Shown: in pieces, positions 37,214-57,337 of the stretch
Position numbering within the stretch: the first letter of the stretch is position 1
Layout of the letters: the number at the start of each line of letters is the position of its first letter
Source of the DNA: an uncultured Rivularia sp.
GTDB lineage: Bacteria > Cyanobacteriota > Cyanobacteriia > Cyanobacteriales > Nostocaceae
Assembly (NCBI GenBank): GCA_963665115.1
Contig: OY762007.1
Location: 4,128,001-4,192,000, forward strand
Direction of reading: 5' to 3'
DNA: 64,000 bases
The notes under the pieces: model-generated
The model's database searches: none
What the model saw: the letters and a program-made list of their open reading frames with translations, nothing else
What the model was told of the DNA's origin: nothing
Program-made: the position numbers and the translations under genes

Positions 37214-38343
37214 GGACATGATCCACATCAGCCACGGTCCTATCGGTTGTGGTTTCTACTCTTGGTCTGGTCGTCGTAACTACTACATTGGAACCACAGG
37301 TGTTGACTCCTTTGGTACAATGAACTTTACTTCTGACTTCCAAGAAAGAGACATCGTTTTTGGTGGAGATAAGAAGCTCGCCAAAATGATTAACGAAATT
37401 GAAGAACTCTTCCCCCTCAATAGAGGCGTATCAGTTCAATCTGAGTGTCCCATCGGTTTGATTGGTGATGACATCGAAGCGGTTGCTAAGAAGGCATCCA
37501 AAGACCTTGGTAAGCCAGTTATCCCCGCTCGTTGTGAAGGTTTCCGTGGTGTGTCTCAGTCTTTAGGACACCACATCGCTAACGATGCTATTCGTGACTG
37601 GGTATTCCCTGCTGCTGATAAAGCTCACAAGGAAAACACCCTTGATTACGAACAAGGTCCTTACGATGTATCAATCATCGGTGACTACAACATCGGTGGT
37701 GACGCTTGGTCTAGCCGTATCCTCTTAGAAGAAATCGGCTTGCGCGTAGTCGCTCAGTGGTCTGGTGATGGTACTCTCAACGAGATGATGCTCACACCGA
37801 AGGTGAAGATGAACTTGATTCACTGCTACCGTTCGATGAACTACATTTCTCGTCATATGGAAGAAGCTTATGGTATTCCCTGGATGGAATACAACTTCTT
37901 CGGACCTACCAAGATTGCTGAATCTTTGAGAGCGATCGCCGCTAAGTTCGATGAGAAAATCCAAGAGAATGCTGAGAAGGTTATTGCTAAGTACCAGCCT
38001 ACAGCTGATGCAATCCTTGAAAAATACGGCGCTCGTCTAAAAGGCAAGACTGTTGCTTTGATGGTTGGTGGTTTACGTCCTCGTCACGTAGTACCTGCAT
38101 TCACAGACTTGGGAATGGAACTTGTAAGTACTGGTTATGAATTCGGTCATAACGATGACTACAAGCGTACTACCAACTACATTGAAAACGGAACCATCGT
38201 TTACGATGACGTAACTGGTTACGAATTCGAGCAGTTTGTAAAAGGACTTAAGCCCGACATCGTTGGTGCTGGTATTAAAGAGAAGTATGTCTTCCAGAAA
38301 ATGGGTCTTCCCTTCCGTCAAATGCACTCTTGGGATTACTCCG
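37214..38343 (+). CDS. nifD: NifD segment 2 (about 40 C-terminal residues missing from the window)
   Basis: [45 protein letters not shown]. Similarity stops at GGATTACTCCG 38333-38343. Confidence 0.96.
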
Positions 38344-38947: not shown

Positions 38948-39742
38948 TTGACAAGACAAATTATAATGTTTAATATGATTAATTTACATAACTTAATAAC
39001 ACCCAAATCGATGTCTCTGATTATTGGAACCAGGATTCATAGTGGCGGTGGTACCCATACACCTAACTTTTCTCGATTAAAAAAATGGTGCGATCAAGTA
39101 TTAGAGTACGCCGATTATGTGGTGATAGCGACCGACGAACACCTGTTCAACGACATTGCCAATAATGTTTTGGGTTTCGGGAACCGAGTACATTCCCTTT
39201 TGGTTAACCCTTGGAAAGGATTCGCTCATCCTTTAAATGCAATCGTCTATGAAGCAACTTCTTTGGGTGGCAGCAAGCTTTTACTGCAAAGTCCAGAAGT
39301 TTACGTTAATTCGGCAGACATAAAAATACTAGATTTGCATCTAACCGCAGATACATTAGTAGCCGGAGCAAAGATGATTTTAAGTCATGGAGGAGATGCT
39401 GGAGTTAAACCTATAGATGGAATGACTTCACCTTGGAATACTTTGGCTTTGTGGAATTTATCAAAATTGAATATAACGGGATTTTTAGGAGTTTCCAGCG
39501 GACTTCTTAAAGATATACCTGGAGGAATGGAAGAAGTGACAACTATTTCGCTACTGCAACAGCTTTATCCAAATGAAGCTCATGCCAAATTAGTGACTTT
39601 ATCACAGCTAAAGTGGATTAACGATTGGAAGGATTTAAAACGCAAAAAGTACCACGAACAGAAAATGTCCTCAAAATTATCCCGAGCAGAAATACAATTA
39701 AAATACTCCAATATTCAACGGGGAATCGTTACTGTTTTGTAA
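38948..39742 (+). CDS. Hypothetical protein, first gene of a sugar-acid operon
   Basis: 264-aa ORF ending 3 bp before the next gene. No family confidently recognised; the start may be a downstream ATG. Confidence 0.7.
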   Translation: MTRQIIMFNMINLHNLITPKSMSLIIGTRIHSGGGTHTPNFSRLKKWCDQVLEYADYVVIATDEHLFNDIANNVLGFGNRVHSLLVNPWKGFAHPLNAIVYEATSLGGSKLLLQSPEVYVNSADIKILDLHLTADTLVAGAKMILSHGGDAGVKPIDGMTSPWNTLALWNLSKLNITGFLGVSSGLLKDIPGGMEEVTTISLLQQLYPNEAHAKLVTLSQLKWINDWKDLKRKKYHEQKMSSKLSRAEIQLKYSNIQRGIVTVL

Positions 39743-39745
39743 ATC

Positions 39746-41077
39746 ATGAATCAAGAACGTTTTGTGAATTGGTCGGGGGAGTACCAATGCATACCTAATT
39801 ACGTACATCACCCTGCAACAGATGAAGAAGTTAAGGATATTGTTTGTCAAGCTATCAAACGGGGAAGCAAAATTCGAGTATTTGGTAGCGCCCATTCTCC
39901 TAGCGATATGGCGATGAGTGATGAGGAATTAGTTTGTCTTGATGGTTTAAATACGATTAAAAATATTGACTATGAAAATCAAACCGTTGTGGTTGAAGCG
40001 GGAGTTACGATTCATGATTTGAGTCAAAGTTTGGCCAAATATGGATTAGCATTACCCAATTTAGGCTCTATTTCGGCTCAAACAATTTCCGGTGCAATGG
40101 CAACTGCAACTCATGGAACGGGTTTGAATTATGGTACAATGCCGACAATTATTGAAGAAATAACTTTGGTAGATGGGAAAGGAGAAATTGTCAAGATTTC
40201 CCAATATGAAAATTCTCAATTATTCAAAGCGGTTCAATGTCATTTAGGAAGTTTGGGATTAATTACAGAATATAAATTAAAAGTCACGGAAAGTTTTGAT
40301 TTAGAAGTAAAAGAGCAACCGCAAACTTTAGAAGCCGTATTTGAGAAGTTACCGGAGTCTTTGAAATCCGACCACTATCGTTTTTGGTATTTACCTCATG
40401 CAGATATGGCTTGGGAGTGGAATGCAACTCGTAAATCACCGGAAAATATTACAGATACAGAAAACAATATTGTACGCCGTTTGGGGAACTGGTATCAACA
40501 AAAGCTTATTGGCTATTATGCTTTTGAATTTTTATTATATTTAGCTGCTTATAATCAAAATTTGATTCCTGCTATCAATCGTTGGTATGCTAAACAAATG
40601 TTTAGTCAACCGAAGCATTCACGGGGTGATAGTTTAAGTCAATTTAATTTTGATTGTCTATTTAAACAGCGGGTAAATGAATGGGCTATTCCCATAGAAT
40701 ATACCGTTCAAGCTATAGAAGAAATTCGCAATTTGATTCAAAATAAAAACTATAAAGCTCATCTTCCCATTGAAGTACGTTTCGTTAAAGGGGATGATAT
40801 ATGGTTAAGTCCTTGTCAAGGAAGAGATAGCTGCTACATCGGCATCATCGGTTATATGCCATACGGAAAATATATTGATTGTCAAGATTATTTTGATGAT
40901 TATGAAAAAATAATGCTTAGTTTTGATGGTCGTCCCCACTGGGCTAAAAGATTTGGCCCAGATGCAGAAAAATTAGCACAAATATATCCCCATTGGAAGG
41001 ATTTTCAAAAAGTACGCCATCAACTCGATCCAGAAAATCGCTTTGGTAATTCCTATAGCGATCGGGTGTTGGGGTAG
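39746..41077 (+). CDS. FAD-linked aldonolactone oxidase (L-gulonolactone oxidase / D-arabinonolactone oxidase family)
   Basis: NWSG start, GSAHSPSD (covalent-FAD His), ATATHGTG, PIEVRFVKGDDIWLSP, GRPHWAK. Confidence 0.88.
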   Translation: MNQERFVNWSGEYQCIPNYVHHPATDEEVKDIVCQAIKRGSKIRVFGSAHSPSDMAMSDEELVCLDGLNTIKNIDYENQTVVVEAGVTIHDLSQSLAKYGLALPNLGSISAQTISGAMATATHGTGLNYGTMPTIIEEITLVDGKGEIVKISQYENSQLFKAVQCHLGSLGLITEYKLKVTESFDLEVKEQPQTLEAVFEKLPESLKSDHYRFWYLPHADMAWEWNATRKSPENITDTENNIVRRLGNWYQQKLIGYYAFEFLLYLAAYNQNLIPAINRWYAKQMFSQPKHSRGDSLSQFNFDCLFKQRVNEWAIPIEYTVQAIEEIRNLIQNKNYKAHLPIEVRFVKGDDIWLSPCQGRDSCYIGIIGYMPYGKYIDCQDYFDDYEKIMLSFDGRPHWAKRFGPDAEKLAQIYPHWKDFQKVRHQLDPENRFGNSYSDRVLG

Positions 41078-41186
41078 AGGGGGTAGAGGGGGTAGAGGGG
41101 GTAGAGGGGGAGAATAAAAATAACTTTGAGATTTACTTAAAATCCAAAATCCAAAATCCAAAATCTAAAATCTAAAATCTAAAATC
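41073..41186. repeat. Tandem 9-mer (GGGTAGAGG x4) and heptamer (AATCCAA/AATCTAA) repeats
   Basis: Seen directly in the intergenic gap. Confidence 0.75.
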
Positions 41187-41188
41187 AA

Positions 41189-42436
41189 ATGACAGATATT
41201 TTAGTTGTCGGAACGGGGGAATATGTTACGGGTTTTGTTCGGGGAGCGGCTGCTGATTCTGATAAAAGCGCTGGTGTAATCGGATTGGTGCTTTTTGATT
41301 TGAGAAGTCGTGGTAAGGTAAATCAAATTGCTTTGTGCGGTCGTGATGGCAAGACTTTTCCGGGTATTCGCGGTCATTTTACTGAGAAAATTGCCAAGCA
41401 ATATGAAGGGATAGATATTAACGTAAATACTTTTCCCGGTGACGATCAATATAATCCTCAAGCTTATCAAACTGCGATCGAGAAAATGAAACCTGGGGAT
41501 GGGGTGATTGTCGTCACACCCGATGATACTCATTTTGAAATGGCGATGACAGCTATTCGTCATGGATTGCACGTTTTGGTTGTAAAGCCTTTGGTGAAAA
41601 CTTTAGAAGAGCATCAGAAATTAATAGAAGTTGGGAAACAGCATAACGTACTGGTGGCAATCGAAATGCATAAAAGATTTGACCCCATGTACTCCGACGC
41701 TCGCGATCGCGTTCGTAGTTTTGGAGATTTTAGCTATATGAATAGCTATATGAGCCAACCTCGGAGTCAGCTGCACACTTTTGGTAAATGGGCTGGAAAA
41801 TCTTCTGATATCAACTACTATCTGAATTCCCATCATATCGATCTATTGGATTGGATGGTCAGCGATTTTGCTAGACCAATTAAAGTAACTGGTTTGGGTG
41901 CTACCGGAGTTGCTAAAAACGAGTTTGACATAAATACCGAAGATACTATTACCACTACAATTCAATGGGAAAATATTCAAAGTGGGAATTTAGGAATTTC
42001 CGTTCATACTGCTTCGTGGATTGCTCCGAAATCTGACGTTCATTCCCAACAACGTTTCTTTTATATGGGACATCAAGGTGAATTACAAATTGACCAAGCT
42101 CATAGGGGTTATTCATCCGCAACAGTTTCCGGAGGATATGCTAGTATCAATCCTTTATTTATGAAATACGAACCTTCCAACGGTAAATTTGCCGGTCAAA
42201 GAGCTTATGGTTATCAAAGCATTGAAAAATTTATTGATGCTGTAGCTGGTATTAAGGAAGGAGCAAAACCAGAAGATTTTGATAACGATATAGCAACCGC
42301 TGGGAAAACATTACAAACAACAGCGATTTTAGAAGCAAGTCGTATTAGCTTGGATAATGATAATTCGTCAGTTGAAATTGAATATAATTCTTCTGAATCG
42401 CTGATTCCAGAAAAATTAAAAAAGGTTAAAGGTTAG
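41189..42436 (+). CDS. Gfo/Idh/MocA oxidoreductase, D-galacturonate-reductase-like
   Basis: VVGTGEYVTG Rossmann start, VTPDDTH, VKPLV, HKRFDP, YYLNSHHID. The subfamily call is from memory of eukaryotic proteins annotated as D-galacturonate reductase. Confidence 0.75.
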   Translation: MTDILVVGTGEYVTGFVRGAAADSDKSAGVIGLVLFDLRSRGKVNQIALCGRDGKTFPGIRGHFTEKIAKQYEGIDINVNTFPGDDQYNPQAYQTAIEKMKPGDGVIVVTPDDTHFEMAMTAIRHGLHVLVVKPLVKTLEEHQKLIEVGKQHNVLVAIEMHKRFDPMYSDARDRVRSFGDFSYMNSYMSQPRSQLHTFGKWAGKSSDINYYLNSHHIDLLDWMVSDFARPIKVTGLGATGVAKNEFDINTEDTITTTIQWENIQSGNLGISVHTASWIAPKSDVHSQQRFFYMGHQGELQIDQAHRGYSSATVSGGYASINPLFMKYEPSNGKFAGQRAYGYQSIEKFIDAVAGIKEGAKPEDFDNDIATAGKTLQTTAILEASRISLDNDNSSVEIEYNSSESLIPEKLKKVKG

Positions 42437-42487
42437 AGGTCAAAGGTTAAAGGTTAAAGGTTAAAGGTTAAAGGTTAGAGGTCAAAG
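42420..42487. repeat. Heptamer tandem repeat (AAAGGTT-type)
   Basis: About 9 tandem copies overlapping the stop codon of the oxidoreductase gene. Confidence 0.75.
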
Positions 42488-42672
42488 TTTTTTAAATCGT
42501 ACTATTTAGTTTTGAATCTCTTTTTCCGTTTGTATCAAAATTATTTTACCTCCTCTTCCTTCTCTTTCCTCTGCGTCCTCTGCGGTTTATAATCTACTTT
42601 ATTTTCATACAAACAAATTAATGTATCTTCCGTCTTGTATAGTAAAAAACCGTATCTTATATAATAAAAACC

Positions 42673-44374
42673 ATGCAAAATAACAATCATATTAGTGAAA
42701 AATATAATAAATATTTAGAATACGAAAATCAAAGATTTAAAGAATTAGCCGAGCAAAATGTAAATAGCTGGGCTGATGTTTGGCAACAGTCAGTAGATAA
42801 ATATCCCGAAAAACCAATTGTTCGTGAAGTGGGTTCGTCAAAACCTTGGACTTATCAAGAACTTGACCGTGCAGCCAATAAAATTGCCACTTGGGCTATT
42901 TCTTTAAATCAAAATAATAAAAATAAAAATAAAAAATATATCGGAGTTCATCAAAGTAACAGTGCTGTTTTATTAGCAACTGTATTGGGATTAGCTAAAG
43001 CGGGAATTACCGCAGTTTTATTTAATGTTAGAGAATCCGAGCAGAAATTATCAACTTTAGCGTCTGATTGTGGAGTTGAAATAAATATAGGTAAACCAAT
43101 TCCATCAGTAAAGAGCTTCGATCCGAATTTAATTCTGTCAGCAGAATGGGAAGGAAGAATTTCCAAAGAGCATCGCGATCGCATTACTATAGAAGATCCA
43201 GTAGTAATTATCTTCACCAGCGGCACCAGCGGACGTAGTAAACCAGCACTTTTTAATCATCGTCGCATGATTGGAGCGGGAATTGCTTGGTCTTTAAGAA
43301 CTGAAATGACACAGGAAAGTAACTGTTATATAACTTTGCCTTTATATCACGGTAACGGTTTAGCAGTAGCTTTTGCTAGTTGTGTAGAAGCGGGAGCTTG
43401 TGCTGTAGTTAGAGAGAAATTTTCGGTACGAGCTTTTCTAGATGATGTGCGTAATTATAATTGCGATTCCGTTGTTTATATAGGAGAACTTTGGCGATAT
43501 TTAGCTAATAGTCCCCAAAAACCGGATGACAAAGATAATCCTTTAAAAGTTATTTTTGGCAATGGTTTGTCATCTGGATTGTGGGAAAATACTATTGAAA
43601 GATTTGGGATTGAAAGAGTTGTAGAACATTTTGGTGCTACAGAAATGCCAGCATCAGCTTTGACAAACTGGACGGGAAAACCTGGTTATTGTGGTTTTAT
43701 TCCTCCAAATCATCCCAATGCTGAAAATGTAGTGTTGGTTGACGAACAAGGAAAACCCGTTGCAATGGGAGAAATTGGACAAGCTTTGTTACGGGTTCCC
43801 GGCGATCGCTATCGAGGTTATCTCGACTCTTCACTTGATGAAAGTAAAATTTGGGAAAATTTATTGGAAACCGGGGGATTTATGGTGGTGTTCTGGAGAC
43901 TTGTTATCTAGAAATGCTGACGGTTTTTTTGCATTTATCGATCGTATGGGAGATACCTTTCGTTGGAAAGGAGAAAATGTTGCTTGTCAGGAAGTAGAAG
44001 AAGCAATTTTGTCAACTGGTTTAGTTAAAGAAGCGGTAGTATATGGAGTTGAGATTCCCAAAGCATCGGGTAAAGTTGGGATGGCATCTCTTTTAACCAT
44101 AGAATCTTTTTTTGAAGGTAATATTGATAATTTTTTAAATCAACTCAAAGAACTTTTACCTCCCTATGCGATTCCCCATATTATTAGATTAGTAGAACAG
44201 CATCATCAAACAACTTCTACAATGAAAATTCTTAAATCCCAATTACAGAAACAGGGATTTCAACAAATTGATAAATATCCGCATTTTATTCTTGTGGAAG
44301 GTAAGTATGTTGTTTTGACAAGAGATTATCTATCAAAGTTGGAGAATGGTAAGTTAAATTTCGGATTTCGCTAG
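42673..44374 (+). CDS. FATP-like (very-)long-chain acyl-CoA synthetase (apparent frameshift near 43870)
   Basis: IFTSGTSGRSK, LPLYHGN, YIGELWRYL, FGATE, then SGDLL...DRMGDTFRWKGENV in the overlapping ORF 43739-44374. Confidence 0.85.
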
Positions 44375-44429
44375 AAAATAGAATCCCTTCCCCTCTCCTT
44401 AATAAGGAGAGGTTTTGAGTATAAATTAC

Positions 44430-45168: not shown

Positions 45169-47062
45169 ATGACATTCGCCAAGTCGAGCTTAAGTATATA
45201 CGATCTGCTTGAAGGTAGTGCTAAAAAAAATCCCGAGAATATAGCTATTGTAACTACTCAAAAGTCTCCTCTCACTTACAGCAGTTTGCTTAATGCTGTA
45301 AACGATGTACGAAGCAAGTTAAACCTAATGGGTATAGGTCGTAATGACCGAGTAGCTGTGGCTTTACCTAACTCCCCAGAGATGGCTGTGACTTTTTTAG
45401 CTATTGCTTCTTGTGCGACTTGTGCCCCTCTCAATCCTAATTATCGTGAATCGGAATACGATTTTTATCTTTCCGATTTAGATGCTAAAGCCTTAGTCTA
45501 TCAGTCGGGAATTGCTGAAGCTGCTGTGGAAGTAGCGAAACAAAAAGGTATTTCCTTAATAGAACTTTCTACAGAAAAAGAAGCCGTATCGGGTATTTTT
45601 CAATTGACGGTTGGGGAAGCGAAGAATCCAATTCAAAGCGGTATTGCTCAATCAGAAGATGTGGCCCTTGGTATTGCATACTTCCGGAACCACCTCTCGT
45701 CCCAAAATGGTTCCACTCACCCATAGTAATCTTTGCACCTCTGCTGAAAATATTTCCTCCACACTTAATTTAGTAGAGAATGACCGTTGTCTGAATGTAA
45801 TGCCTTTATTCCACATTCACGGACTTATAGGAGCTTTACTCTCATCGCTGAATGTTGGAGCAAGTATAGCTTGTACACCAGGATTTTACGCTCCTAATTT
45901 CTTTAAATGGGTCGAGGAATTACATCCTACTTGGTATTCAGCAGTTCCCACCATGCATCAAGCAATTTTGGCGCGGGTAGAGACGAATAGTGAAATTATT
46001 GCTAGTTCTCAAATCCGCTTAATTCGTTCTTCTTCTGCTCCTTTACCACCTCGAATAATGACAGAATTGGAACAAGTTTTTAATGTTCCGGTAATTGAAT
46101 CTTATGGGATGACAGAAGCCTCTCATCAAATGGCTAGTAATCCTCTTCCTCCCTTTATACGTAAACCTGGTTCGGTAGGGATTGCAGCAGGGCCAGAAGT
46201 TGCAATTATGGATGATACGGGTAAATTATTGTCATCTGGAGAAATTGGAGAAGTAGTAATTCGGGGAGTCAATGTTACTCAAGGTTACGAAAATAATCCC
46301 CAAGCAAACAAAACTGCTTTTACTAATGGTTGGTTTCGGACGGGTGATTTGGGTTATTTAGATAAGGATAATTATCTATTCCTCAAGGGTCGAATTAAAG
46401 AAATTATTAACCGTGGTGGGGAAAAGATTTCTCCTCGTGAAGTTGATGAAGTGCTTTTAGATCATCCAAACATTGACCAAGTTGTTACCTTTGCGGCTCC
46501 TCATACTCTTTTGGGTGAAGATGTTGCTGCTGCTGTGGTTTTAAAACAAGGTGCATCATTAACAGAACTAGAAATCAAGGAATTTGCAGCATTAAAACTA
46601 GCTGATTTTAAAATTCCTCGTGTAGTGTTATTCGTAGATGAAATACCGAAAGGTCCTACAGGTAAAAGACAGCGTATAGGTTTAGCCCAAAAATTAGGAT
46701 TAACAGCTTCCGATCCTACTGCAACTACAGAATATGCACCTCCGACAACAGCTATAGAAGAAAAATTAGTTCAAATTTGGTCTAAGGTATTAGGCGTTGA
46801 AAAGGTAGGAATTAACGATAACTTTTTCGGGTTAGGAGGAGATTCTATCTTAGCGGCTCAAATTATCAATAGAGTTCGCGAAGTTTTGCAAGTTGAGTTA
46901 TCTTTTCTAATCTTCTTTGAACAACCTACTGTTGCGAGTATGGCAATCAAAATCACTCAAAATCAGGCTGAAGAAGTAATGTCTGAAGAATTAGATGATG
47001 TATTAAACAACTTAGAATCTCTTTGCGAGTCAGAAGTTGAAAAACTGTTAGGACAGATGTAG
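45169..47062 (+). CDS. Oxalate-CoA-ligase-like (AAE3/Pcs60-type) adenylation domain fused to a carrier protein (apparent frameshift near 45667)
   Basis: PLNPNY, LVLHTSGTTSRPKMVPLTH, MPLFHIHGL, WYSAVPTMH, RSSSAPL, YGMTEASHQMASNPLP; C-terminal FFGLGGDSI phosphopantetheine site. Confidence 0.8.
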
Positions 47063-47099
47063 TTAAATAATACCTATTACAATTAATTGCAACTAGATT

Positions 47100-47933
47100 A
47101 TGGATAATTCCCCAAATTACTTACGAGAAGAATTGAAAGCAAAAGACATCATTCCTTTCATTGGTGTTTATGATGCTTTCTCAGCTTCAATAGCAGCTAA
47201 ATATTACAAAGGTATTTTTATTAGTGGTTTTGGTTTTGCAGCTAGCCACTATGGCTTACCAGATATTGGATTTATTTCTTGGTCTGATATTGTCGCTTTT
47301 GTCCAAAGGGTGAAAAATTTACTTCCCAATCACCACATTATTGTTGATATTGATGATGGCTATGTAGATACAGAAGTTGCTTGTCATGTAGTTTCTTTAT
47401 TGGAATCTATTGGTGCGGCTGGAATAATTATTGAAGACCAAAAACGACCTCGTAGATGCGGTCATGTTGATGGCAAAATATTGATGGAATTAGATGAATT
47501 TATAGATAAATTAAAACAAGTTTTAGCTGCTCGTAAAGATATTTTTGTAGTGGCTCGGACAGATGCAAGCGATACCTCAGAAATTATTAAAAGAGCTAAA
47601 GCTTATGCAGAAGTAGGAGCAGATGCCATATTGGCTGATGGAATTCATGATTTAGATGTAATTAGAACTCTTAAAAATCAAGTTGATAAGCCTTTAGTAT
47701 TTAATCAAATAGCGGGTGGAAAATCTCCTGAATGCAGTTTAACTGATTTGAAAAAAGCAGGTGTATCTCTTGTTAATTACAGTACACCATGCCTATTTGC
47801 AGTTCAAACAGCGATTGAAGACGAGATGAAATTGCTTAGAGAAAATGACGGGTGGTTGCAAAAACAACGTGTGGGTGTACGAGAGTGTAACGCGCATTTA
47901 CATGAGAATCTTGCAAATAAGAAAAATTATTAA
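47100..47933 (+). CDS. Isocitrate lyase/PEP mutase superfamily enzyme (oxaloacetate hydrolase / methylisocitrate lyase-like)
   Basis: SGFG, DIDDGY, IEDQKRPRRCGH loop, VARTDA. Confidence 0.85.
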   Translation: MDNSPNYLREELKAKDIIPFIGVYDAFSASIAAKYYKGIFISGFGFAASHYGLPDIGFISWSDIVAFVQRVKNLLPNHHIIVDIDDGYVDTEVACHVVSLLESIGAAGIIIEDQKRPRRCGHVDGKILMELDEFIDKLKQVLAARKDIFVVARTDASDTSEIIKRAKAYAEVGADAILADGIHDLDVIRTLKNQVDKPLVFNQIAGGKSPECSLTDLKKAGVSLVNYSTPCLFAVQTAIEDEMKLLRENDGWLQKQRVGVRECNAHLHENLANKKNY

Positions 47934-47960
47934 AAACTAATTATATTTTTGTTAATAAAC

Positions 47961-50900
47961 ATGAAAGATATCACCCAACGTATTGCAAATCTCTCACCAG
48001 CAAAACGAGCGCTTCTAGAACAGCAACTTCATAAAAAAGCATTACAAACTAAACAAGAGAACAACATCTCTCCGAGAAAACAATATCAAGACACTCCCTT
48101 ATCGTTTTCTCAGCAAAGAATGTGGTTGCTAGACCAATTAGAACCTGGAAATCCAGCTTATAATCGTCCGGCAAATATTAGTTTGACTGGTACGATCAAT
48201 GTACAAGTATTGGAAAAAATTCTCAACGAAATAATACGTCGTCACGAAGTCTTACGTACTAGCTTTGAGGAAGTAAACGGACAACCTTTTCAGAAAATCA
48301 CTCCGAATATAACTTTAAAGCTACCAATAGTAGACCTCAGTAATTTAAATGATGAAAATAAAGAAATTGAAGTTCAAAAACTAGCGACTGAAGAAGCACA
48401 GCAGACCTTTGATTTAACTCAAGTTCCTTTAATAAAAGCTAAATTGGTACGACTCCACGAGCAGAAACATATACTCTTGCTGACAATGCATCATATTGTC
48501 TTTGATGGTTGGTCTATGGGAGTTCTACTCAAGGAAGTAGGAGAACTTTACCAAGCTTTCTCAACGGGTAAACCATCTCCTCTACCAGAATTACCCATCC
48601 AATATGCTGACTTTGCTGTTTGCCAGAGAGAATGGTTAACAGATAAAGTTCTAGACAAGCAACTAAATTATTGGAAACAGCAACTAGCAGGTGCAAATCC
48701 AGTACTGGAATTACCCACAGACAGTCTACGTCCACCAGTGCAGACTTATAATGGTGCTACTGCTACTCTCATCCTACCTCGAAGCTTGAACTATAGACTC
48801 CAACAGCTTTGTCGTCAGGAAGGGGTGACATTATTCATGACCTTATTGGCTGCATTTGGGACTCTACTCTACCGTTATACCGGGCAAGAAGATATTCTGA
48901 TTGGTTCGCCCGTTGCCGGTCGCAACCGGGGAGAGATTGAACAATTAATCGGATTATTTGTCAACACAGTTGTTTTGCGGACTAGTTTTACCAAACAAGA
49001 TAGTTTTCGTTCTTTGTTAGCTCAAGTTAGAGAAGTTACCTTGGGTGCTTATGACCATCAAGCTATGCCTTTTGAGAAACTGGTAGAAGAATTCCAGCTT
49101 GAGCGAGATACCAGCCGCAACCCTTTATTTCAGGTGTGGTTTAATATGCTCAACTTGAAAGATATCCAACTCGAACTACCGGGGATAAATGTAGAATCTA
49201 TTTCTGCGGGGGAAGCAGCTTCCAAGTTTGATTTAACTTTATATGTGGCAGAGCAAGAAGATGGATTGAAACTAAAATTAGTCTATAATTATGACTTGTT
49301 TGCGACCGAGCGGATGATGGAAATGCTCAATCAATACCACCATTTACTTTTGCAGATAGTTGAAAATCCAGAAGTTAATATTAACGAACTGTCTATAGTA
49401 ACTCAGTCAGCTAAATCATTCTTACCAAATCCTCAAAAGCAACTTTCTAGTAAATGGGAAGGAGATATTCCTAAGTTATTTTCTCAACAAGCTCAAAGGG
49501 TACCACAGCATCTAGCGGTTGTGGATGCCCAAGTTGCTTGGACTTACGACGAACTAGAGAAACGTGTTAACCAACTCGCAAACTATCTACTGGGAAATAA
49601 TATACAACAGCAGGATATTGTTGCTATTTACGCTCAGCGTAGGGTTAGGCTAGTTTGGGCAATTTTGGGAGTTCTCAAAGCTGGTGCTGCATTTGTAATT
49701 CTCGATTCAGCTTATCCCACTTTTCGTTTAATTGATTGTCTGCAACTCGTTAAACCCCGTGGCTGGTTACAAATTGATTCTGAGGAACTTCCCACTGACT
49801 TGCAAGAGTATGTGAATTCTTTATCTTTTGATTGTCAGCTTAATCTTCCCCAAGATTCAACATCGGCAATTTCTGAAAAATTAAAAGATTATCCAACTAA
49901 CACTCCAGAAATAATAATTGAGCCAGATAATTTAGCATATGTTGCGTTTACCTCTGGTTCTACGGGAAAACCAAAAGGGATAAAAGGAACTCACAGACCT
50001 CTATCCCACTTTTTACAATGGCATTATCAAACCTTTGGTTTAAATCAGTCTGACAAATTTAGTATGCTCTGCGGTCTGTCCCATGACCCATTGTTACGGG
50101 ATATCTTCACCCCATTGTCGTTAGGTGCGACTTTATATATCCCCAGACAGGAAGATATTTATTCACCACCAAAATTAACCAATTGGATGGTAGAACAGCA
50201 AATTAGTATTGCTCATTTAACACCAGCAATGGGGCAAATGTTGAGTGCAGATACTAAAACTACTACAAAATACCTTCGTTATCTATTTTTTGGGGGTGAT
50301 GTATTAACAAAAATTGACGTAGAAGGAATTACTAAATTTGCTCCAAACGCTACCCAAGTTAATTTCTACGGTTCTACTGAAACTCCCCAAGCAATGGGCT
50401 ATTTTATTATTCCCCGCGATTGCTTACTATCGAATACCGTACCTTTGGGTAAAGGCATTGACGATGTACAATTATTACTTCTTAATTCTAAGCAGCAGTT
50501 AGCTGGGATTGGAGAGTTAGCAGAAATCTATGTTCGTACCCCTTACTTAACTAAAGGCTATATCAACAGTGAAGAATTGACGGATCAAAGGTTTATTGTT
50601 AATCCCTTCGCAAAAAATCCTGAAGATAAACTTTATAAAACTGGGGATTTAGGACGCTATTTAAGTAATGGTAATATCGAATTTTTTGGTCGTATCGATA
50701 ACCAAGTAAAGATTCGCGGCTTCCGCATCGAATTGGGAGAAATAGAATCTTTACTTAATACCCATCCCCAAATCCAACAAGCTGTAGTTATTGTCCGAGA
50801 AGATATCAGTAACGACAAACGCTTAGTTGCCTATCTAGTTCAAGATGAATCACTTACTACCGAAGAAGTACGTGAATTTGTCAAGCATAAGTTACCAGAA

Positions 50901-52226
50901 TATATGGTGCCTAGTACCTTTGTTAGCTTAGAGAACATACCTTTAACAGCTAACGGCAAAGTAGATAGAAAAGCATTACCCGCACCAGATTCATTAAGTA
51001 TTAATTTAGAGAATAATTTTGTTAAACCCAGTAATTATACAGAAGAAATCTTAGCAACTATTTGGGCAGATGTTCTGGGTGTAGAGCAAGTAGGAATTCA
51101 TGACAACTTCTTTGAATTGGGCGGTCATTCGTTGTTAGCTATGCGCTTAGTAGCACAAATAGAACAAGTAACTCAGAAAAAACTACCATTAGCTGCTCTA
51201 TTTAAATTTACAACAATCTCGGAACTAGCCAATCTGATCCAAAACGAAGTTGCAGATACCAATCCAAATTTATCAGTGGACTTACCGTCAATAGACACAG
51301 ATATTTTTCGTGCATTATTAACTATAATCGCTGGTAGGGAAGGAGCGCGACCAAGACCTGATTCTCTAATGGTTGCATTTCGTGAAACAGGAAAAAAGCC
51401 TCCCTTATTTTTCTGCGCTAATGCTACATGGGAAATACGTCCCCTTACCCAGTATCTAGATGAAGAGCAACCAATTTATTTACTAGAATCTGGTTATGCT
51501 GTTTTTGATCGGAAAGGTCAATTAAACAAGGCTCCTAGAGATGATATTAAGGCGATCGCTACTCGTCACGTCCGCGATATATTATTAATAAATCCAGAAG
51601 GACCGTATTTTTTGATCGGATATTCTTTTGGAAAACTTGTAACCTATGAAATAGCTAAGCAATTGCAAGCAAAGGGAAAGAAAATTGCATTGTTAGCAAT
51701 CTTAGATACTCCCGGTTCGGCAAAAACTTATCAGTATACAAAAAAAATATTGGTAGGGATAGCTGAAATGTCACAGGAGCTATTTAGTGGTTCATTACTA
51801 AGTTTTACTAAACGTTTTGGTTTATCGATATGGAAAGTAAAAGAAGATTTGGCAGAAATTGGTAGCAAAACTATTGTAAAACTTTTGCGTATAAATAATT
51901 TTTCTCATAAATCCGACCTTGACTCCAATCCTATTTCCGAGAAACAGCAAAACAATCCAGAAATTAAAGAATCCATATCTTATATGGAGCAAAATAAAGC
52001 GAAGTACATAATGGAAGGCTATCAAGGCAAAATTACGTTTTTTGTTACTTCCGTTGTTCGTCGTAACCATAACAAAATTCTACGTCGGCTATTTCCTTTA
52101 ATGGGTTGGAACAAACACGTTATAGAAAAAGTCAAAGTCCCCGGCGACCATAATAGCATGGTAAGAGAACCTGACGTGAAAGCCTTAGCAGAAAGTTTAA
52201 TGGATATACTCGCAAATCTGAAATGA
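47961..52226 (+). CDS. Single-module NRPS (C-A-T-TE)
   Basis: HHIVFDGWS C domain; A domain FTSGSTGKPKG, LSHDPLLRDIFTPL, YKTGDLGRY; FFELGGHSLL T domain; GYSFG TE with PGDH. Confidence 0.93.
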   Translation: MKDITQRIANLSPAKRALLEQQLHKKALQTKQENNISPRKQYQDTPLSFSQQRMWLLDQLEPGNPAYNRPANISLTGTINVQVLEKILNEIIRRHEVLRTSFEEVNGQPFQKITPNITLKLPIVDLSNLNDENKEIEVQKLATEEAQQTFDLTQVPLIKAKLVRLHEQKHILLLTMHHIVFDGWSMGVLLKEVGELYQAFSTGKPSPLPELPIQYADFAVCQREWLTDKVLDKQLNYWKQQLAGANPVLELPTDSLRPPVQTYNGATATLILPRSLNYRLQQLCRQEGVTLFMTLLAAFGTLLYRYTGQEDILIGSPVAGRNRGEIEQLIGLFVNTVVLRTSFTKQDSFRSLLAQVREVTLGAYDHQAMPFEKLVEEFQLERDTSRNPLFQVWFNMLNLKDIQLELPGINVESISAGEAASKFDLTLYVAEQEDGLKLKLVYNYDLFATERMMEMLNQYHHLLLQIVENPEVNINELSIVTQSAKSFLPNPQKQLSSKWEGDIPKLFSQQAQRVPQHLAVVDAQVAWTYDELEKRVNQLANYLLGNNIQQQDIVAIYAQRRVRLVWAILGVLKAGAAFVILDSAYPTFRLIDCLQLVKPRGWLQIDSEELPTDLQEYVNSLSFDCQLNLPQDSTSAISEKLKDYPTNTPEIIIEPDNLAYVAFTSGSTGKPKGIKGTHRPLSHFLQWHYQTFGLNQSDKFSMLCGLSHDPLLRDIFTPLSLGATLYIPRQEDIYSPPKLTNWMVEQQISIAHLTPAMGQMLSADTKTTTKYLRYLFFGGDVLTKIDVEGITKFAPNATQVNFYGSTETPQAMGYFIIPRDCLLSNTVPLGKGIDDVQLLLLNSKQQLAGIGELAEIYVRTPYLTKGYINSEELTDQRFIVNPFAKNPEDKLYKTGDLGRYLSNGNIEFFGRIDNQVKIRGFRIELGEIESLLNTHPQIQQAVVIVREDISNDKRLVAYLVQDESLTTEEVREFVKHKLPEYMVPSTFVSLENIPLTANGKVDRKALPAPDSLSINLENNFVKPSNYTEEILATIWADVLGVEQVGIHDNFFELGGHSLLAMRLVAQIEQVTQKKLPLAALFKFTTISELANLIQNEVADTNPNLSVDLPSIDTDIFRALLTIIAGREGARPRPDSLMVAFRETGKKPPLFFCANATWEIRPLTQYLDEEQPIYLLESGYAVFDRKGQLNKAPRDDIKAIATRHVRDILLINPEGPYFLIGYSFGKLVTYEIAKQLQAKGKKIALLAILDTPGSAKTYQYTKKILVGIAEMSQELFSGSLLSFTKRFGLSIWKVKEDLAEIGSKTIVKLLRINNFSHKSDLDSNPISEKQQNNPEIKESISYMEQNKAKYIMEGYQGKITFFVTSVVRRNHNKILRRLFPLMGWNKHVIEKVKVPGDHNSMVREPDVKALAESLMDILANLK

Positions 52227-53579: not shown

Positions 53580-54035
53580 TTATCTAATCTCAATCTGCTG
53601 ACTATCTACTTCTAAAATTACTTCATCATCATATTTCAAATCATCAATTTTAAAAGTAATAATCTCTAAAATATCCGCAGCTTGAAAATGCTCTGGTTTT
53701 GTATCTGGATGGGGATAATAAATCAATCCTTCTTTGACTTCACCGTTTGTGAGCAAAATTCTGCAATCAAAAAATGAAAAGTCTTCCGCTGGTTCGTTTT
53801 CCGCCCATTTGAGATTTTTAAAGGTGTATTTGGCTTGTTTAACAGAATATTGATGGGGAGAAATTGAAATATTCAAAGTTCCTGAAAAATACGGTTGTAA
53901 ATCAAGTCCTAACTCACGAAAGAAAGGCTTTTGCATTTCAATTGTTCCGTTGGGGAAACGTATATCTCCACCTTTACCCGATGCGACACCGTAACCTTTT
54001 TTGATAATTCCTTTGACTTGTAAATAATTGATCAT
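53580..54035 (-). CDS. Hypothetical protein, possibly CTP-dependent riboflavin-kinase-like fold
   Basis: GIIKKGYGVASG and GTLNI motifs; 151 aa. Confidence 0.55.
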   Translation of the reverse strand: MINYLQVKGIIKKGYGVASGKGGDIRFPNGTIEMQKPFFRELGLDLQPYFSGTLNISISPHQYSVKQAKYTFKNLKWAENEPAEDFSFFDCRILLTNGEVKEGLIYYPHPDTKPEHFQAADILEIITFKIDDLKYDDEVILEVDSQQIEIR

Positions 54036-55246: not shown

Positions 55247-57337
55247 ATGAAAGACCTCACTCGTTATCGAAATATCGGCATCTTCGCTCACGTTGATGCA
55301 GGAAAAACAACCACAACTGAAAGAATTCTCAAGCTTACTGGTAAGATCCACAAAATCGGTGAGGTTCATGAAGGTGCGGCGACAACGGACTTTATGGATC
55401 AGGAGCAGGAGCGCGGTATTACGATTCAATCCGCTGCTACAAGCTGCTTCTGGAACGAACATCAATTGAATATCATCGATACCCCTGGGCACGTTGATTT
55501 CACGATTGAGGTATATCGTTCTCTCAAGGTTCTGGACGGCGGAATCGGCGTATTTTGTGGCTCTGGTGGTGTGGAACCCCAGTCGGAAACCAACTGGCGC
55601 TATGCTAACGACTCGGAAGTTGCGCGTGTTATTTACGTTAACAAGCTCGACCGCATAGGAGCAGATTACTACCGCGTTATCAAACAGGTGGAAGATGTGC
55701 TTGCTGCTAAGCCGTTGGTTATGGTACTACCTATCGGTACCGAAAGTGAATTTTCTGGCGTTGTTGACTTGCTGACTCGTAAAGCATGGGTGTGGGATGA
55801 TTCCGGCGACCCTATGAACTACGAGATTAAGGAAGTTCCGGAAAACATGAAGGATGATGTCGAAACTTGGCGCGAAAAGCTAGTTGAAATCGCTGTGGAA
55901 CAAGACGATGCGTTGATGGAAAAATACCTTGAAGGTGAAGAGGTATCCGTAGATGAGTTGAAGCGCTGTATCCGCAAGGGCACCATTGACTTAGCATTCT
56001 TCCCTACTTACTGTGGTTCTTCCTTTAAAAACAAGGGCGTACAATTAGTACTCAATGCAGTTGTTGACTATTTGCCTAACCCCAAAGAAGTCAAGCCTCA
56101 GCCCGAAGTTGACCTTGAAGGTAACGAAACTGGCGAATTTGCCGAAGTTGACTCAGAAGCACCATTGCGGGCGCTAGCATTCAAAATCATGGACGATCGC
56201 TTCGGTGCTTTGACCTTTACTCGCATATATTCAGGTACCCTTTCAAAAGGTGATACCATCCTCAATACCTATACTGGTAAAACCGAGCGTGTCAGTCGTC
56301 TTGTAGAAATGCACGCCGATTCTCGCGAAGAAATCGATACAGCCCAAGCTGGAGATATTGTCGCGATTGTGGGTATGAAGAACGTCCAAACCGGACATAC
56401 CTTGTGCGACCCCAAGGACCCCGCAACCCTAGAACCAATGGTGTTTCCAGACCCCGTAATCTCTATTGCGATAGCACCTGCGAAGAAAGGAAGCTCCGAG
56501 AAACTCGGTATGGCTTTGAGCAAGATGGTTCAAGAAGATCCTTCCTTCCAGGTTGAAACCGACAAAGACAGCGGTGAAATGATTATCAAAGGGATGGGAG
56601 AACTGCACCTGGATATTAAAGTTGATATCCTCAAGCGGACTCACGGCGTTGAAGTGGAAGTTGGTAAGCCCCAAGTAGCATACCGCGAATCTATTACTAA
56701 GCGCATCGAAGACACCTACATCCATAAAAAGCAATCCGGTGGTTCCGGTCAATTCGGTAAGATTGAATATATTATCGAACCTGGCGAACCCGGTACTGGC
56801 TTCGAGTTCCAGTCCAAAGTAACTGGTGGTAACGTACCCAGAGAATTTTGGCCCGCAGTTCAAAAGGGTTTTGAAAGCAGTATTGACAAAGGTGTTTTAG
56901 CTGGATTCCCCTTGGTAGACGTGAAAATTACCTTAACTGACGGTGCTTATCACCCAGTTGACTCCAGCGCGATCGCGTTTGAGATTGCAGCGAAATCCGG
57001 TTATCGTCAAACTTTACCAAAAGCCGGTCCTCAGTTGCTTGAGCCAGTTATGAACGTAGACGTATTTACACCTGACGACCACGTTGGTGATGTAATTGGC
57101 GACTTAAACCGTCGTCGTGGCATGATTAAATCCCAAGATCCAGGTGCTACAGGGGTTCGCATCAAGTCAGAAGTTCCTCTAAGCGAAATGTTTGGTTACA
57201 TCGGCGATTTACGTACCATGACTTCCGGTCGCGGTCAGTTCTCAATGGAATTTGACCACTACGCACCATGTCCTAGAAATGTCGCTGATGAAGTTATTAA
57301 GGAAGTGAAAGAACGCGATGCTGCTGCTAAGAAGTAA
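55247..57337 (+). CDS. fusA: Elongation factor G (stand-alone paralog outside the str operon)
   Basis: [37 protein letters not shown]; no rpsL/rpsG/tuf neighbours. Confidence 0.95.

What the first reader, a model, noticed from the sequence alone, without database searches (positions are those of the whole stretch)
38948..44374. Candidate ascorbate-type (vitamin C-like) biosynthesis cassette in a cyanobacterium
Seen: a co-directional run of hypothetical protein, aldonolactone oxidase, Gfo/Idh/MocA reductase and FATP-like ligase. The oxidase has the covalent-FAD His (GSAHSPSD), the Glu-Arg pair (PIEVRF) and GRPHWAK typical of L-gulonolactone / D-arabinonolactone oxidases. The reductase resembles, from memory and unverified, eukaryotic proteins annotated as D-galacturonate reductase. 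Established: uronate -> aldonate -> aldonolactone -> ascorbate is the Euglena-type and animal-type route, and ascorbate synthesis is not well established in prokaryotes. Inference: this operon may make ascorbate or an analogue, perhaps acylated by the FATP-like enzyme. No recognisable lactonase is present; the first gene is unassigned.
Basis: partly seen in the sequence, partly recalled or inferred. Interest (0 to 1): 0.8.

Follow-up and report, generated by a model that had tools for sequence, protein, structure and literature searches.

The report
Four-gene bacterial vitamin C pathway
Four genes that sit together here and travel together across distant bacteria likely form a complete pathway for making vitamin C, which bacteria are usually thought not to make; two of the four are predicted to carry out steps with enzyme types not described for this pathway before.

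Summary
The four genes are real and form a conserved unit. They recur in marine cyanobacteria, Thiotrichales, Campylobacterota, Myxococcota and Dyella. In 201 sampled Campylobacterales genomes, all four occur in the same 6, even where the oxidase is unlinked. ORF2 has the full aldonolactone-oxidase active site, with the oxidase glycine and the galactono-type specificity glycine. ORF3 matches the GaaA/Euglena Gaa1 D-galacturonate reductases. ORF1 has a GT-A nucleotide-sugar fold without DxD. ORF4 is a soluble FATP-derived clade whose fatty-acid tunnel Phe is replaced by His (120 of 120). Three different oxidase lineages, including a plant-type GLDH, sit beside the same three-gene core, and two loci add a UDP-glucuronate-4-epimerase-like gene. 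Best reading (inferred, no assay): UDP-D-galacturonate to D-galacturonate (ORF1), to L-galactonate (ORF3), to L-galactono-1,4-lactone by ATP-driven ring closure (ORF4, replacing the missing lactonase), to L-ascorbate (ORF2). Here the unit is cargo of a 29.9-kb nifD excision element. The ORF4 frameshift is absent in 3 of 4 matching runs. Earlier papers noted only the oxidase; four look-ups in this scan's findings returned no report of this cassette.

The parts
38333..38343 (+). Left 11-bp direct repeat (GGATTACTCCG) of a 29.9-kb nifD excision element that carries the cassette; the right copy lies beyond the window (G000:C1:4196185)
   Evidence: removing the element in silico restores the nifD frame; a Xis-type recombinase gene lies next to the right repeat
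39011..39742 (+). ORF1, 243 aa, GT-A (GT2-like) fold without DxD; predicted UDP-uronate hydrolase that releases D-galacturonate (inferred)
   Evidence: model pLDDT 95.5; Foldseek; VIA-align Z 18.3, rmsd 2.5, 200 aligned to BcsA and Z 18.2 to PcManGT; invariant S94, P141-W-N-T144, E174-E175, K218, K222, R225 in 76 of 76
39746..41077 (+). ORF2, 443 aa, FAD-linked aldonolactone oxidase; predicted L-galactono-1,4-lactone oxidase
   Evidence: His50, Gly107, Cys304, Gln308, Glu343, Arg345, Gly366, Lys401 map on vGalDH residues named in PMC11099136
41189..42436 (+). ORF3, 415 aa, Gfo/Idh/MocA reductase of the GaaA/Gaa1 type; predicted D-galacturonate reductase
   Evidence: N-terminus 7 of 10 residues identical to Euglena Gaa1 as read from the primer in PMC9192788
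42673..44374 (+). ORF4, about 566 aa when read without the extra base near 43868; soluble FATP-derived adenylate-forming enzyme; predicted ATP-dependent aldonolactone synthetase (inferred)
44392..44412 (+). Terminator-like hairpin just after ORF4, likely the end of the unit
   Evidence: consensus match only; 3 found against 4.5 expected in shuffles

Best explanation
The four genes are a conserved, co-inherited unit that likely makes L-ascorbate from UDP-D-galacturonate by the carbon-chain-inversion (Euglena-type) route. Housekeeping UDP-glucose dehydrogenase and UDP-glucuronate 4-epimerase would supply UDP-D-galacturonate. ORF1 (GT-A fold shown by model; activity inferred) would hydrolyse it to D-galacturonate. 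ORF3 (family shown; activity inferred from characterised GaaA and Gaa1) would reduce C1 to give L-galactonate. ORF4 (adenylating machinery shown; substrate inferred) would activate the carboxylate as acyl-AMP, possibly passing through a CoA thioester, so that the 4-hydroxyl closes L-galactono-1,4-lactone, replacing a lactonase that works against equilibrium at neutral pH. ORF2 (active site shown; activity inferred) would oxidise C2 with O2 to give ascorbate and H2O2. The likely use is as antioxidant or Fe(III) reductant (speculative).
For: Unit: of 46 ORF1 loci from GTDB genomes, the reductase is in 36, the ligase in 34 (including a remnant in L009 and a broken copy in L016), an oxidase in 30, all three in 21; gene order is shuffled between phyla. 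Picked independently by the ligase, 18 of 19 metagenome loci at 40% identity or more with at least 500 bases downstream carry ORF1 (5 further loci end at the ligase). In 201 Campylobacterales genomes the oxidase, ligase, reductase and ORF1 are each found in 6, the same 6, although the oxidase is about 1 Mb away in G001 and on another contig than the ligase in G004 and G008. Of 12 core loci without an adjacent oxidase I tested 10; 9 have it elsewhere in the genome. Within the window's genus the ligase is in 7 of 18 and the oxidase in 8 of 18 genomes, 7 shared. End product: three oxidase types stand by the same core: the window's type, a Campylobacterota/Thiomargarita type at 31-34% identity, and in L039 a plant-type GLDH (TIGR01676, 396 bits of cut-off 458). 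ORF2 keeps the vGalDH substrate residues (Cys340, Gln344, Glu386, Arg388, Lys456 = C304, Q308, E343, R345, K401), the oxidase Gly at position 113 (G107) and the covalent-FAD His50; position 413 is Gly (G366) in 29 of 31 cassette oxidases, the other 2 truncated, where animal GULO has Asn. Start substrate: a NAD-dependent epimerase with the look of UDP-glucuronate 4-epimerase (family label recalled; Pfam PF01370) abuts the ligase in L039 and L069; homologues exist in G000 (57% and 56%) and in 5 of 5 Campylobacterota cassette genomes; a UDP-sugar dehydrogenase family member is in 5 of 5 and uronate isomerase UxaC in 0 of 5 genomes tested. Lactone step: no lactonase in the loci examined (neighbour scan of 58 of 92 neighbour proteins); PF08450 absent in 4 of 4 and PF10282 below cut-off in 5 of 5 Campylobacterota cassette genomes tested. 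The ligase keeps FATP2's catalytic T225, H268, E360, R480 and K572, but FATP2 F361, whose side chain forms the fatty-acid tunnel, is His in 120 of 120 clade members, A270 is Asn in 120 of 120, and W210, R213, P330 are in 119 of 120; the N-terminal membrane anchor is absent. ANL enzymes that close lactones with ATP are known (OleC/NltC, 10.1101/856955), and L-galactonate lactonisation needs low pH without help (PMC4299797).
Against: No enzyme assay, metabolite or expression evidence exists. ORF1's fold fits a transferase as well as a hydrolase, and no GT-A-fold UDP-uronate hydrolase turned up in my reading. Four distant ORF1 homologues (L043-L046, 33-40% identity) have none of the partners, so the wider family does something without this pathway. 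GaaA-like reductases occur in Planctomycetes and other bacteria, and GaaA also reduces D-glucuronate and is catabolic in fungi. The window's own genome has two strong SMP-30/gluconolactonase-family genes, so it would not need ORF4 for lactonisation. The ligase keeps the R-x8-GEN hinge motif of CoA ligases (117-118 of 120), so a CoA thioester product is possible. In 9 of 31 oxidases the substrate Cys is His, so the product may differ by lineage. ORF2 falls just short of the TIGR01678 cut-off (373 against 396.8), and 3 of 301 cyanobacterial genomes have 32-36% identical oxidase-family genes with no ligase. One ligase locus (L064) lacks ORF1 and one core genome (G009) gave no oxidase. The Campylobacterota genomes are incomplete assemblies and kin, so absences and co-occurrence are weaker than the counts suggest. 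Pocket mapping rests on a profile alignment, not on coordinates.
Confidence: 0.6

Rival explanations
1. ORF3 and ORF2 make ascorbate (lactone formed spontaneously or by a housekeeping lactonase), while ORF1 and ORF4 decorate it: ORF1 as a true glycosyltransferase giving an ascorbate glycoside, ORF4 as an acyl-activating enzyme giving an acyl-ascorbate.
For: ORF1's best structural matches are transferases; ORF4's nearest solved relative is a fatty acyl-CoA synthetase and CoA-ligase motifs are kept; G000 has lactonase-family genes; natural ascorbate glycosides exist (PMC6191929 figure legend).
Against: It leaves no source of free uronate and no lactonase in Campylobacterota carriers; no acyltransferase is in the unit; the ligase pocket is polar and lacks the membrane anchor; the epimerase, ligase, ORF1 and reductase are the tightly linked block while the oxidase drifts away, which fits upstream roles.
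Confidence: 0.15
2. Same four-step logic but a different sugar or order: UDP-D-glucuronate to L-gulono-1,4-lactone, or a substituted uronate (for example an N-acetamido one) giving an ascorbate analogue, or ORF4 lactonising the uronate before ORF3 reduces it.
For: GaaA accepts D-glucuronate; animal-type oxidases take both lactones; 9 of 31 cassette oxidases have His for the substrate Cys; the epimerase's exact substrate was not tested (its best NCBIfam hits are all far below cut-off).
Against: Gly at the 413 position in all 29 complete oxidases and a plant-type GLDH in L039 point to L-galactono-1,4-lactone; characterised GaaA and Gaa1 act on the free acid.
Confidence: 0.17
3. The unit has nothing to do with ascorbate-like reductones: it builds another sugar-acid-derived metabolite or cell-surface component, or is catabolic.
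For: All four activities are inferred; reviews state that prokaryotes most likely do not make ascorbate; the oxidase family includes alditol and other oxidases.
Against: The complete aldonolactone-oxidase site, the replacement by a GLDH in L039, the GaaA-type partner and the absence of an uptake system or UxaC are hard to explain otherwise.
Confidence: 0.08

Closest known systems
Euglena/stramenopile D-galacturonate (inversion) pathway of ascorbate synthesis (Wheeler et al. 2015, PMC4396506; Gaa1, PMC9192788)
   Same: GaaA/Gaa1-type reductase, L-galactono-1,4-lactone as predicted last intermediate, an aldonolactone oxidoreductase as last enzyme.
   Different: Bacterial and clustered; no SMP30-type aldonolactonase in the unit; an ANL ligase and a GT-A-fold protein are fixed members; the last enzyme here is an O2-using oxidase type, not mitochondrial GLDH (except L039).
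Aldonolactone oxidoreductases: animal GULO, fungal ALO, trypanosomatid galactonolactone oxidase, plant GalDH (PDB 8QMY/8QNC; PMC11099136)
   Same: VAO fold, His for covalent FAD, Gly gate, Cys/Gln/Glu/Arg/Lys substrate site, HWxK.
   Different: Has GalDH-type Gly, not GULO Asn363, at the specificity position. [quoted passage not shown]
Aspergillus niger GaaA / Euglena gracilis Gaa1 D-galacturonate reductase (EC 1.1.1.365)
   Same: Rossmann Gfo/Idh/MocA family, similar length (415 against 420 aa), N-terminal motif; 54-60% identity to eukaryotic homologues in stramenopiles and a rotifer.
   Different: No full-length comparison with the characterised proteins was possible; cassette reductases branch apart from the eukaryote + Planctomycetes group in an unrooted quick tree.
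FATP/VLACS acyl-CoA synthetases (human FATP2, PDB 9VZP) and, by function, beta-lactone synthetases OleC/NltC
   Same: FATP2: sequence family (E 1e-90) and all ATP/adenylation residues. OleC/NltC: proposed logic of ATP-driven intramolecular ring closure of a hydroxy acid.
   Different: Tunnel Phe361 is His, Ala270 is Asn, no membrane anchor; not shown to be related to OleC beyond the ANL superfamily; proposed product is a gamma-lactone of a sugar acid.
GT2/GT-A glycosyltransferases (BcsA, PcManGT); by function PseG-like UDP-sugar hydrolases
   Same: GT-A fold over the whole chain; an acidic pair (E174-E175) and a basic helix (K218, K222, R225) where GT2 enzymes have their TED and QxxRW motifs (position inferred from the model's secondary structure; motif names recalled).
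   Different: No DxD (QSxE instead), about 10% identity, no Pfam hit. [quoted passage not shown]
nifD interruption elements of heterocyst-forming cyanobacteria (Hilton et al. 2016, PMC4874684)
   Same: Direct repeats, Xis recombinase at the far end, EF-G paralogue as cargo.
   Different: Carries this biosynthetic cassette, which is not element-specific: outside Rivularia/Calothrix it lies elsewhere.

Membership tests
Aldonolactone oxidoreductases (ORF2) | FAD_binding_4 plus ALO domains | tested here: met
   PF01565 and PF04030 above cut-off
Aldonolactone oxidoreductases (ORF2) | Substrate site Cys340, Gln344, Glu386, Arg388, Lys456 (vGalDH numbering) | tested here: met
   C304, Q308, E343, R345, K401 by alignment to 8QNC
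Oxidase branch (GULO/ALO) (ORF2) | His for covalent FAD and Gly at position 113 | tested here: met
   His50, Gly107
Animal GULO (ORF2) | Asn363 at the specificity position | tested here: not met
   Gly366, as in GalDH Gly413
NCBIfam TIGR01678 sugar 1,4-lactone oxidase (ORF2) | Score above curated cut-off 396.8 | tested here: not met
   373.3 bits, best family; TIGR01679 passed narrowly, 292.8 against 292.25
Aldonolactone oxidoreductases (ORF2) | Oxidises a sugar 1,4-lactone to ascorbate | not testable with these tools
   needs assay
GaaA/Gaa1 D-galacturonate reductases (ORF3) | Gfo/Idh/MocA Rossmann family, about 420 aa, matching N-terminus | tested here: met
   many close homologues carry the automatic name D-galacturonate reductase
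GaaA/Gaa1 D-galacturonate reductases (ORF3) | Full-length orthology with the characterised GaaA or Gaa1 proteins | not tested
   neither sequence was returned by a tool
FATP/VLACS fatty acyl-CoA synthetases (ORF4) | P-loop, His268, Glu360, Arg480, Lys572 | tested here: met
   T186, H230, E322, R428, K521 of the L004 protein
FATP/VLACS fatty acyl-CoA synthetases (ORF4) | Hydrophobic tunnel residue Phe361 and N-terminal membrane anchor | tested here: not met
   His in 120 of 120; N-terminal hydropathy maximum -0.77; PRK08279 pieces 242 and 170 bits against cut-off 625
ANL lactone synthetases (ORF4) | ATP-dependent ring closure of a hydroxy acid | not testable with these tools
   needs assay
GT-A / GT2 glycosyltransferases (ORF1) | GT-A fold | tested here: met
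GT-A / GT2 glycosyltransferases (ORF1) | DxD metal-binding motif after the fourth strand; Pfam GT2 match | tested here: not met
   Q-S-x-E at 93-96; no Pfam hit at E 0.1
Euglena-type ascorbate pathway | SMP30-type aldonolactonase | tested here: inconclusive
   not in the unit; absent in 4 of 4 Campylobacterota carriers tested (incomplete genomes) but present elsewhere in G000
Euglena-type ascorbate pathway | Ascorbate made with inversion of the glucose carbon chain | not testable with these tools
   needs 13C labelling
nifD excision element | Direct repeats bracketing the element, recombinase gene, frame restored on excision | tested here: met

The most novel reading that the evidence does not exclude
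This is a complete, dedicated bacterial vitamin C pathway with two new enzyme activities, a GT-A-fold UDP-galacturonate hydrolase and an ATP-driven aldonolactone synthetase, and it also names the missing enzymes of the inversion pathway in protists: ORF1 has homologues in diatoms, oomycetes and Phaeomonas, and intron-bearing eukaryotic contigs encode the same His/Asn/Trp ligase subtype.
Probability: 0.4. Interest if true: 0.93.

Novelty: new variant of a known kind. Interest (0 to 1): 0.82.

Why it matters
Whether prokaryotes make ascorbate de novo is an open question; reviews say they most likely do not (PMC6191929, PMC4396506), and earlier notes on cyanobacterial GULO-like genes rested on the last enzyme alone. 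A four-gene unit with one gene for each needed step makes this directly testable, in cultured carriers such as Calothrix parasitica NIES-267 or by expression in E. coli. If ORF4 closes the lactone with ATP, it removes the step reported as a probable bottleneck in engineered D-galacturonate-to-vitamin-C production (PMC4299797). If ORF1 releases the uronate, it gives a candidate for an unassigned step in algae and other protists. Carriers are largely marine and oxygen-gradient organisms, where a reductant could matter for oxidative stress or iron uptake (speculative).

Tried and rejected
Downstream acyl-CoA ligase-ACP, ICL/PEP-mutase and NRPS genes (45169-52226) as part of the unit: rejected, they are in none of the 46 related loci. 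Real loss of ORF4 in this lineage: not supported, 3 of 4 runs (one study) lack the extra base. Recent transfer from eukaryotes: not shown; the reductase tree is a quick, unrooted one with long branches and gives no direction. ORF1 on plasmids or viral contigs: no match. Expression: no RNA holder listed. ESM Atlas gave only unnamed clusters for ORF1, plus a weak GT2 lead (PF00535 on 13% of one viral cluster), and generic AMP-binding clusters for the ligase. Fold search of the ligase model gave generic ANL enzymes at 15-22% identity and no substrate clue. Promoter and terminator scans were not above chance. The Euglena aldonolactonase paper was not held. The eukaryotic range of the ligase clade was not mapped by a wide profile search, so the hosts of L079, L082 and L083 are unidentified. 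No oxidase tree with eukaryotic GULO/ALO was built, for lack of those sequences. Four look-ups in earlier scan findings returned nothing on this cassette.


Full report
Observation. The window holds four co-directional genes at 38948/39011-39742, 39746-41077, 41189-42436 and 42673-44374. ORF4 is split by one extra base near 43868 relative to intact relatives. Contigs from 3 of 4 public runs that hold this DNA lack that base, two of them with no other difference over the gene, while one run reads like the window; the same pattern holds for a second frameshift at 45665 (all four runs are of one study). I therefore treat ORF4 as intact in the lineage and used the Calothrix parasitica copy (L004) for analysis.

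Setting. The cassette starts about 600 bp after an 11-bp repeat that interrupts nifD; the second copy lies 29,852 bases further on, next to a Xis-type recombinase gene, and removing the element restores the nifD frame. The same repeat lies 619-887 bases upstream of ORF1 in 7 of the 9 closest loci (L001-L009; the other two contigs hold under 600 bases upstream) and in none of the other 37. So in Rivularia/Calothrix the unit is cargo of the nifD element that such cyanobacteria excise in heterocysts (PMC4874684, passages), but elsewhere it is not tied to it. It is patchy: ligase in 7 and oxidase in 8 of 18 congeners, intact in only G000 among 301 sampled cyanobacterial genomes, and decayed in L009, L016 and L139.

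A conserved unit. A scan of GTDB genomes with the ORF1 alignment gave 46 loci (one exact peptide pattern, so a lower bound) in cyanobacteria, Thiotrichales and other Gammaproteobacteria, Campylobacterota, Myxococcota and Dyella. The reductase is in 36, the ligase in 34, an oxidase in 30 and all three in 21; many gaps are contig ends; four distant homologues (33-40%) have no partner. Order varies: ORF1-oxidase-reductase-ligase in most cyanobacteria, ligase-ORF1-oxidase-reductase in others, ligase-ORF1-reductase with a convergent or distant oxidase in Campylobacterota. Picked by the ligase instead, 18 of 19 informative metagenome loci carry ORF1. Of 12 core loci without an oxidase, 10 genomes were searched and 9 have one elsewhere. 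In 201 Campylobacterales genomes each of the four genes was found in 6, always the same 6. These genomes are kin and incomplete, so I give no p-value, but co-inheritance of an unlinked gene is strong evidence of one pathway.

ORF2. Best family TIGR01678 (373 bits, cut-off 396.8), then TIGR01679; best solved relatives are GalDH structures. Mapping on vGalDH (PMC11099136, parts 1-3 of 6 read): substrate residues Cys340, Gln344, Glu386, Arg388, Lys456 are C304, Q308, E343, R345, K401; the oxygen gate is Gly (G107) and the flavinylation His is present (H50). The specificity position is Gly366, as in GalDH, not the Asn of GULO, in 29 of 31 cassette oxidases (2 truncated). This predicts an L-galactono-1,4-lactone oxidase, in line with the grouping of the Moorena and C. 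parasitica proteins with trypanosomatid enzymes (PMC9602106, section 4.2). Three oxidase types accompany the core: this one, a type at 31-34% identity in which the Cys is His, and in L039 a plant-type GLDH. Different lactone oxidases beside one core suggest that the core delivers an aldonolactone.

ORF3. Gfo/Idh/MocA family. The top 120 of 2,876 hits include stramenopile and rotifer proteins at 54-60% and many automatic 'D-galacturonate reductase' names. Euglena Gaa1, found as the GaaA homologue and shown to reduce D-galacturonate (PMC9192788, parts 1-3 of 4), is 420 aa and its cloning primer reads MVDVLMVGTG against MTDILVVGTG here. GaaA also takes D-glucuronate (PMC6353982, passages). Stand-alone homologues exist in Planctomycetes, so this gene alone proves nothing.

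ORF1. No family hit, but a confident model (pLDDT 95.5) has the GT-A fold (Z 18.3, rmsd 2.5, 200 residues to BcsA). DxD is replaced by QSxE; PWNT, EE and three basic residues are invariant in 76 of 76 aligned homologues (of 99 hits). The pathway needs free uronate; carriers tested lack UxaC (0 of 5) but have UDP-sugar dehydrogenase (5 of 5) and epimerase homologues (5 of 5, plus G000), and an epimerase gene abuts the ligase in L039 and L069. In liver, glucuronate comes directly from UDP-glucuronate (cited in PMC6353982). I infer a UDP-galacturonate hydrolase; a transferase role is not excluded. Homologues occur in a diatom, Phaeomonas and many oomycetes.

ORF4. A compact clade (45-91% identity, top 120 hits) derived from the FATP family (E 1e-90 to FATP2). 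The ATP and adenylation residues tested in FATP2 are kept, but the tunnel Phe361 (10.64898/2026.07.06.736331, sections 5-6) is His in 120 of 120, Ala270 is Asn in 120 of 120, W210, R213 and P330 are in 119 of 120, and there is no membrane anchor. This points to one small polar substrate. The unit has no lactonase; Campylobacterota carriers tested have no PF08450 (4 of 4) and no PF10282 over cut-off (5 of 5), though G000 has two strong PF08450 genes. Lactonisation of L-galactonate absorbs protons and needed low pH in engineered Aspergillus (PMC4299797, passages), and ANL enzymes that close lactones with ATP exist (10.1101/856955, passages). I infer an ATP-dependent aldonolactone synthetase, direct or through CoA. 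Three metagenome contigs (L079, L082, L083; two nearly the same gene) encode the same subtype (HGNA, EHYGSTEMP, conserved Trp) in pieces separated by GT-AG-bounded gaps, so eukaryotic orthologues probably exist.

Mechanism. Four genes match four steps: UDP-D-galacturonate to D-galacturonate (ORF1), to L-galactonate (ORF3), to L-galactono-1,4-lactone (ORF4), to L-ascorbate (ORF2). Shown: genes, folds, residues, co-inheritance. Inferred: every activity. I put ascorbate or a close analogue at about 0.9 summed over readings, and this exact scheme at 0.6.

What is known. Wheeler et al. 2015 found one GULO in Rivularia PCC 7116 and no clear evidence of prokaryotic synthesis (passages); Duque et al. 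2022 added Moorena and C. parasitica oxidases; Smirnoff 2018 and the 2024 review treat ascorbate as eukaryotic and assign the D-galacturonate route to algae with secondary plastids (passages). Searches for a bacterial ascorbate cluster found none: six phrases gave 0 papers, and a four-term search gave only Wheeler et al.. The library is open-access only and I read no supplements, so a report in a subscription journal or a supplement could have been missed. I did not test whether the PCC 7116 gene sits in the same cassette.

Verdict. A real, conserved, undescribed four-gene unit; a new bacterial variant of the inversion pathway with two candidate new enzyme activities. Interest 0.82.

Noticed in passing
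window 45169-52226: Separate cargo in the same nifD element: an acyl-CoA ligase fused to a carrier domain, an ICL/PEP-mutase-family gene and a C-A-T-TE NRPS. It looks like an oxalate-activating peptide cluster (labels recalled). It is in none of the 46 related loci; its frameshift at 45665 is absent in 3 of 4 runs.
   Followed up: partly
window 1759-38378: The nif cluster is heavily interrupted: nifH and nifD are in several pieces, with at least five Xis-like recombinase genes in the window and more just beyond it.
   Followed up: partly
window 53580-54035 and 55247-57337: A small gene with a weak hit to CTP-dependent riboflavin kinase (PF01982, E 0.012) and an EF-G paralogue follow the cassette in several Rivularia/Calothrix loci; the EF-G paralogue is known cargo of such elements (PMC4874684).
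   Followed up: no
L013:14125-14862, L014, L015, L019, L057: A TauE/SafE-family membrane gene sits in or beside the cassette in 5 loci; a possible exporter of the product.
   Followed up: partly
L039:3736-10433: A proteobacterial contig has a plant-type GLDH gene divergent from epimerase-ligase-ORF1-reductase; GLDH was described as essentially absent from prokaryotes (PMC4396506).
   Followed up: partly
L043-L046: Distant ORF1 homologues without any partner gene, two in candidate-phyla bacteria (Komeilibacteria, Doudnabacteria); role unknown.
   Followed up: no
L009, L016, L139: Decayed cassettes: transposase insertions after ORF1 or within the oxidase, and a stop-split ligase with truncated oxidase in a Nostoc assembly.
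   Followed up: partly
L018:9971-11650: ORF1 homologue of 559 aa with a long C-terminal extension that has no Pfam hit, in a region with mobile-element genes.
   Followed up: no
window 41078-41188 and 42437-42490: Short tandem repeats fill the gaps between ORF2, ORF3 and ORF4, as is common in filamentous cyanobacteria (recalled).
   Followed up: no
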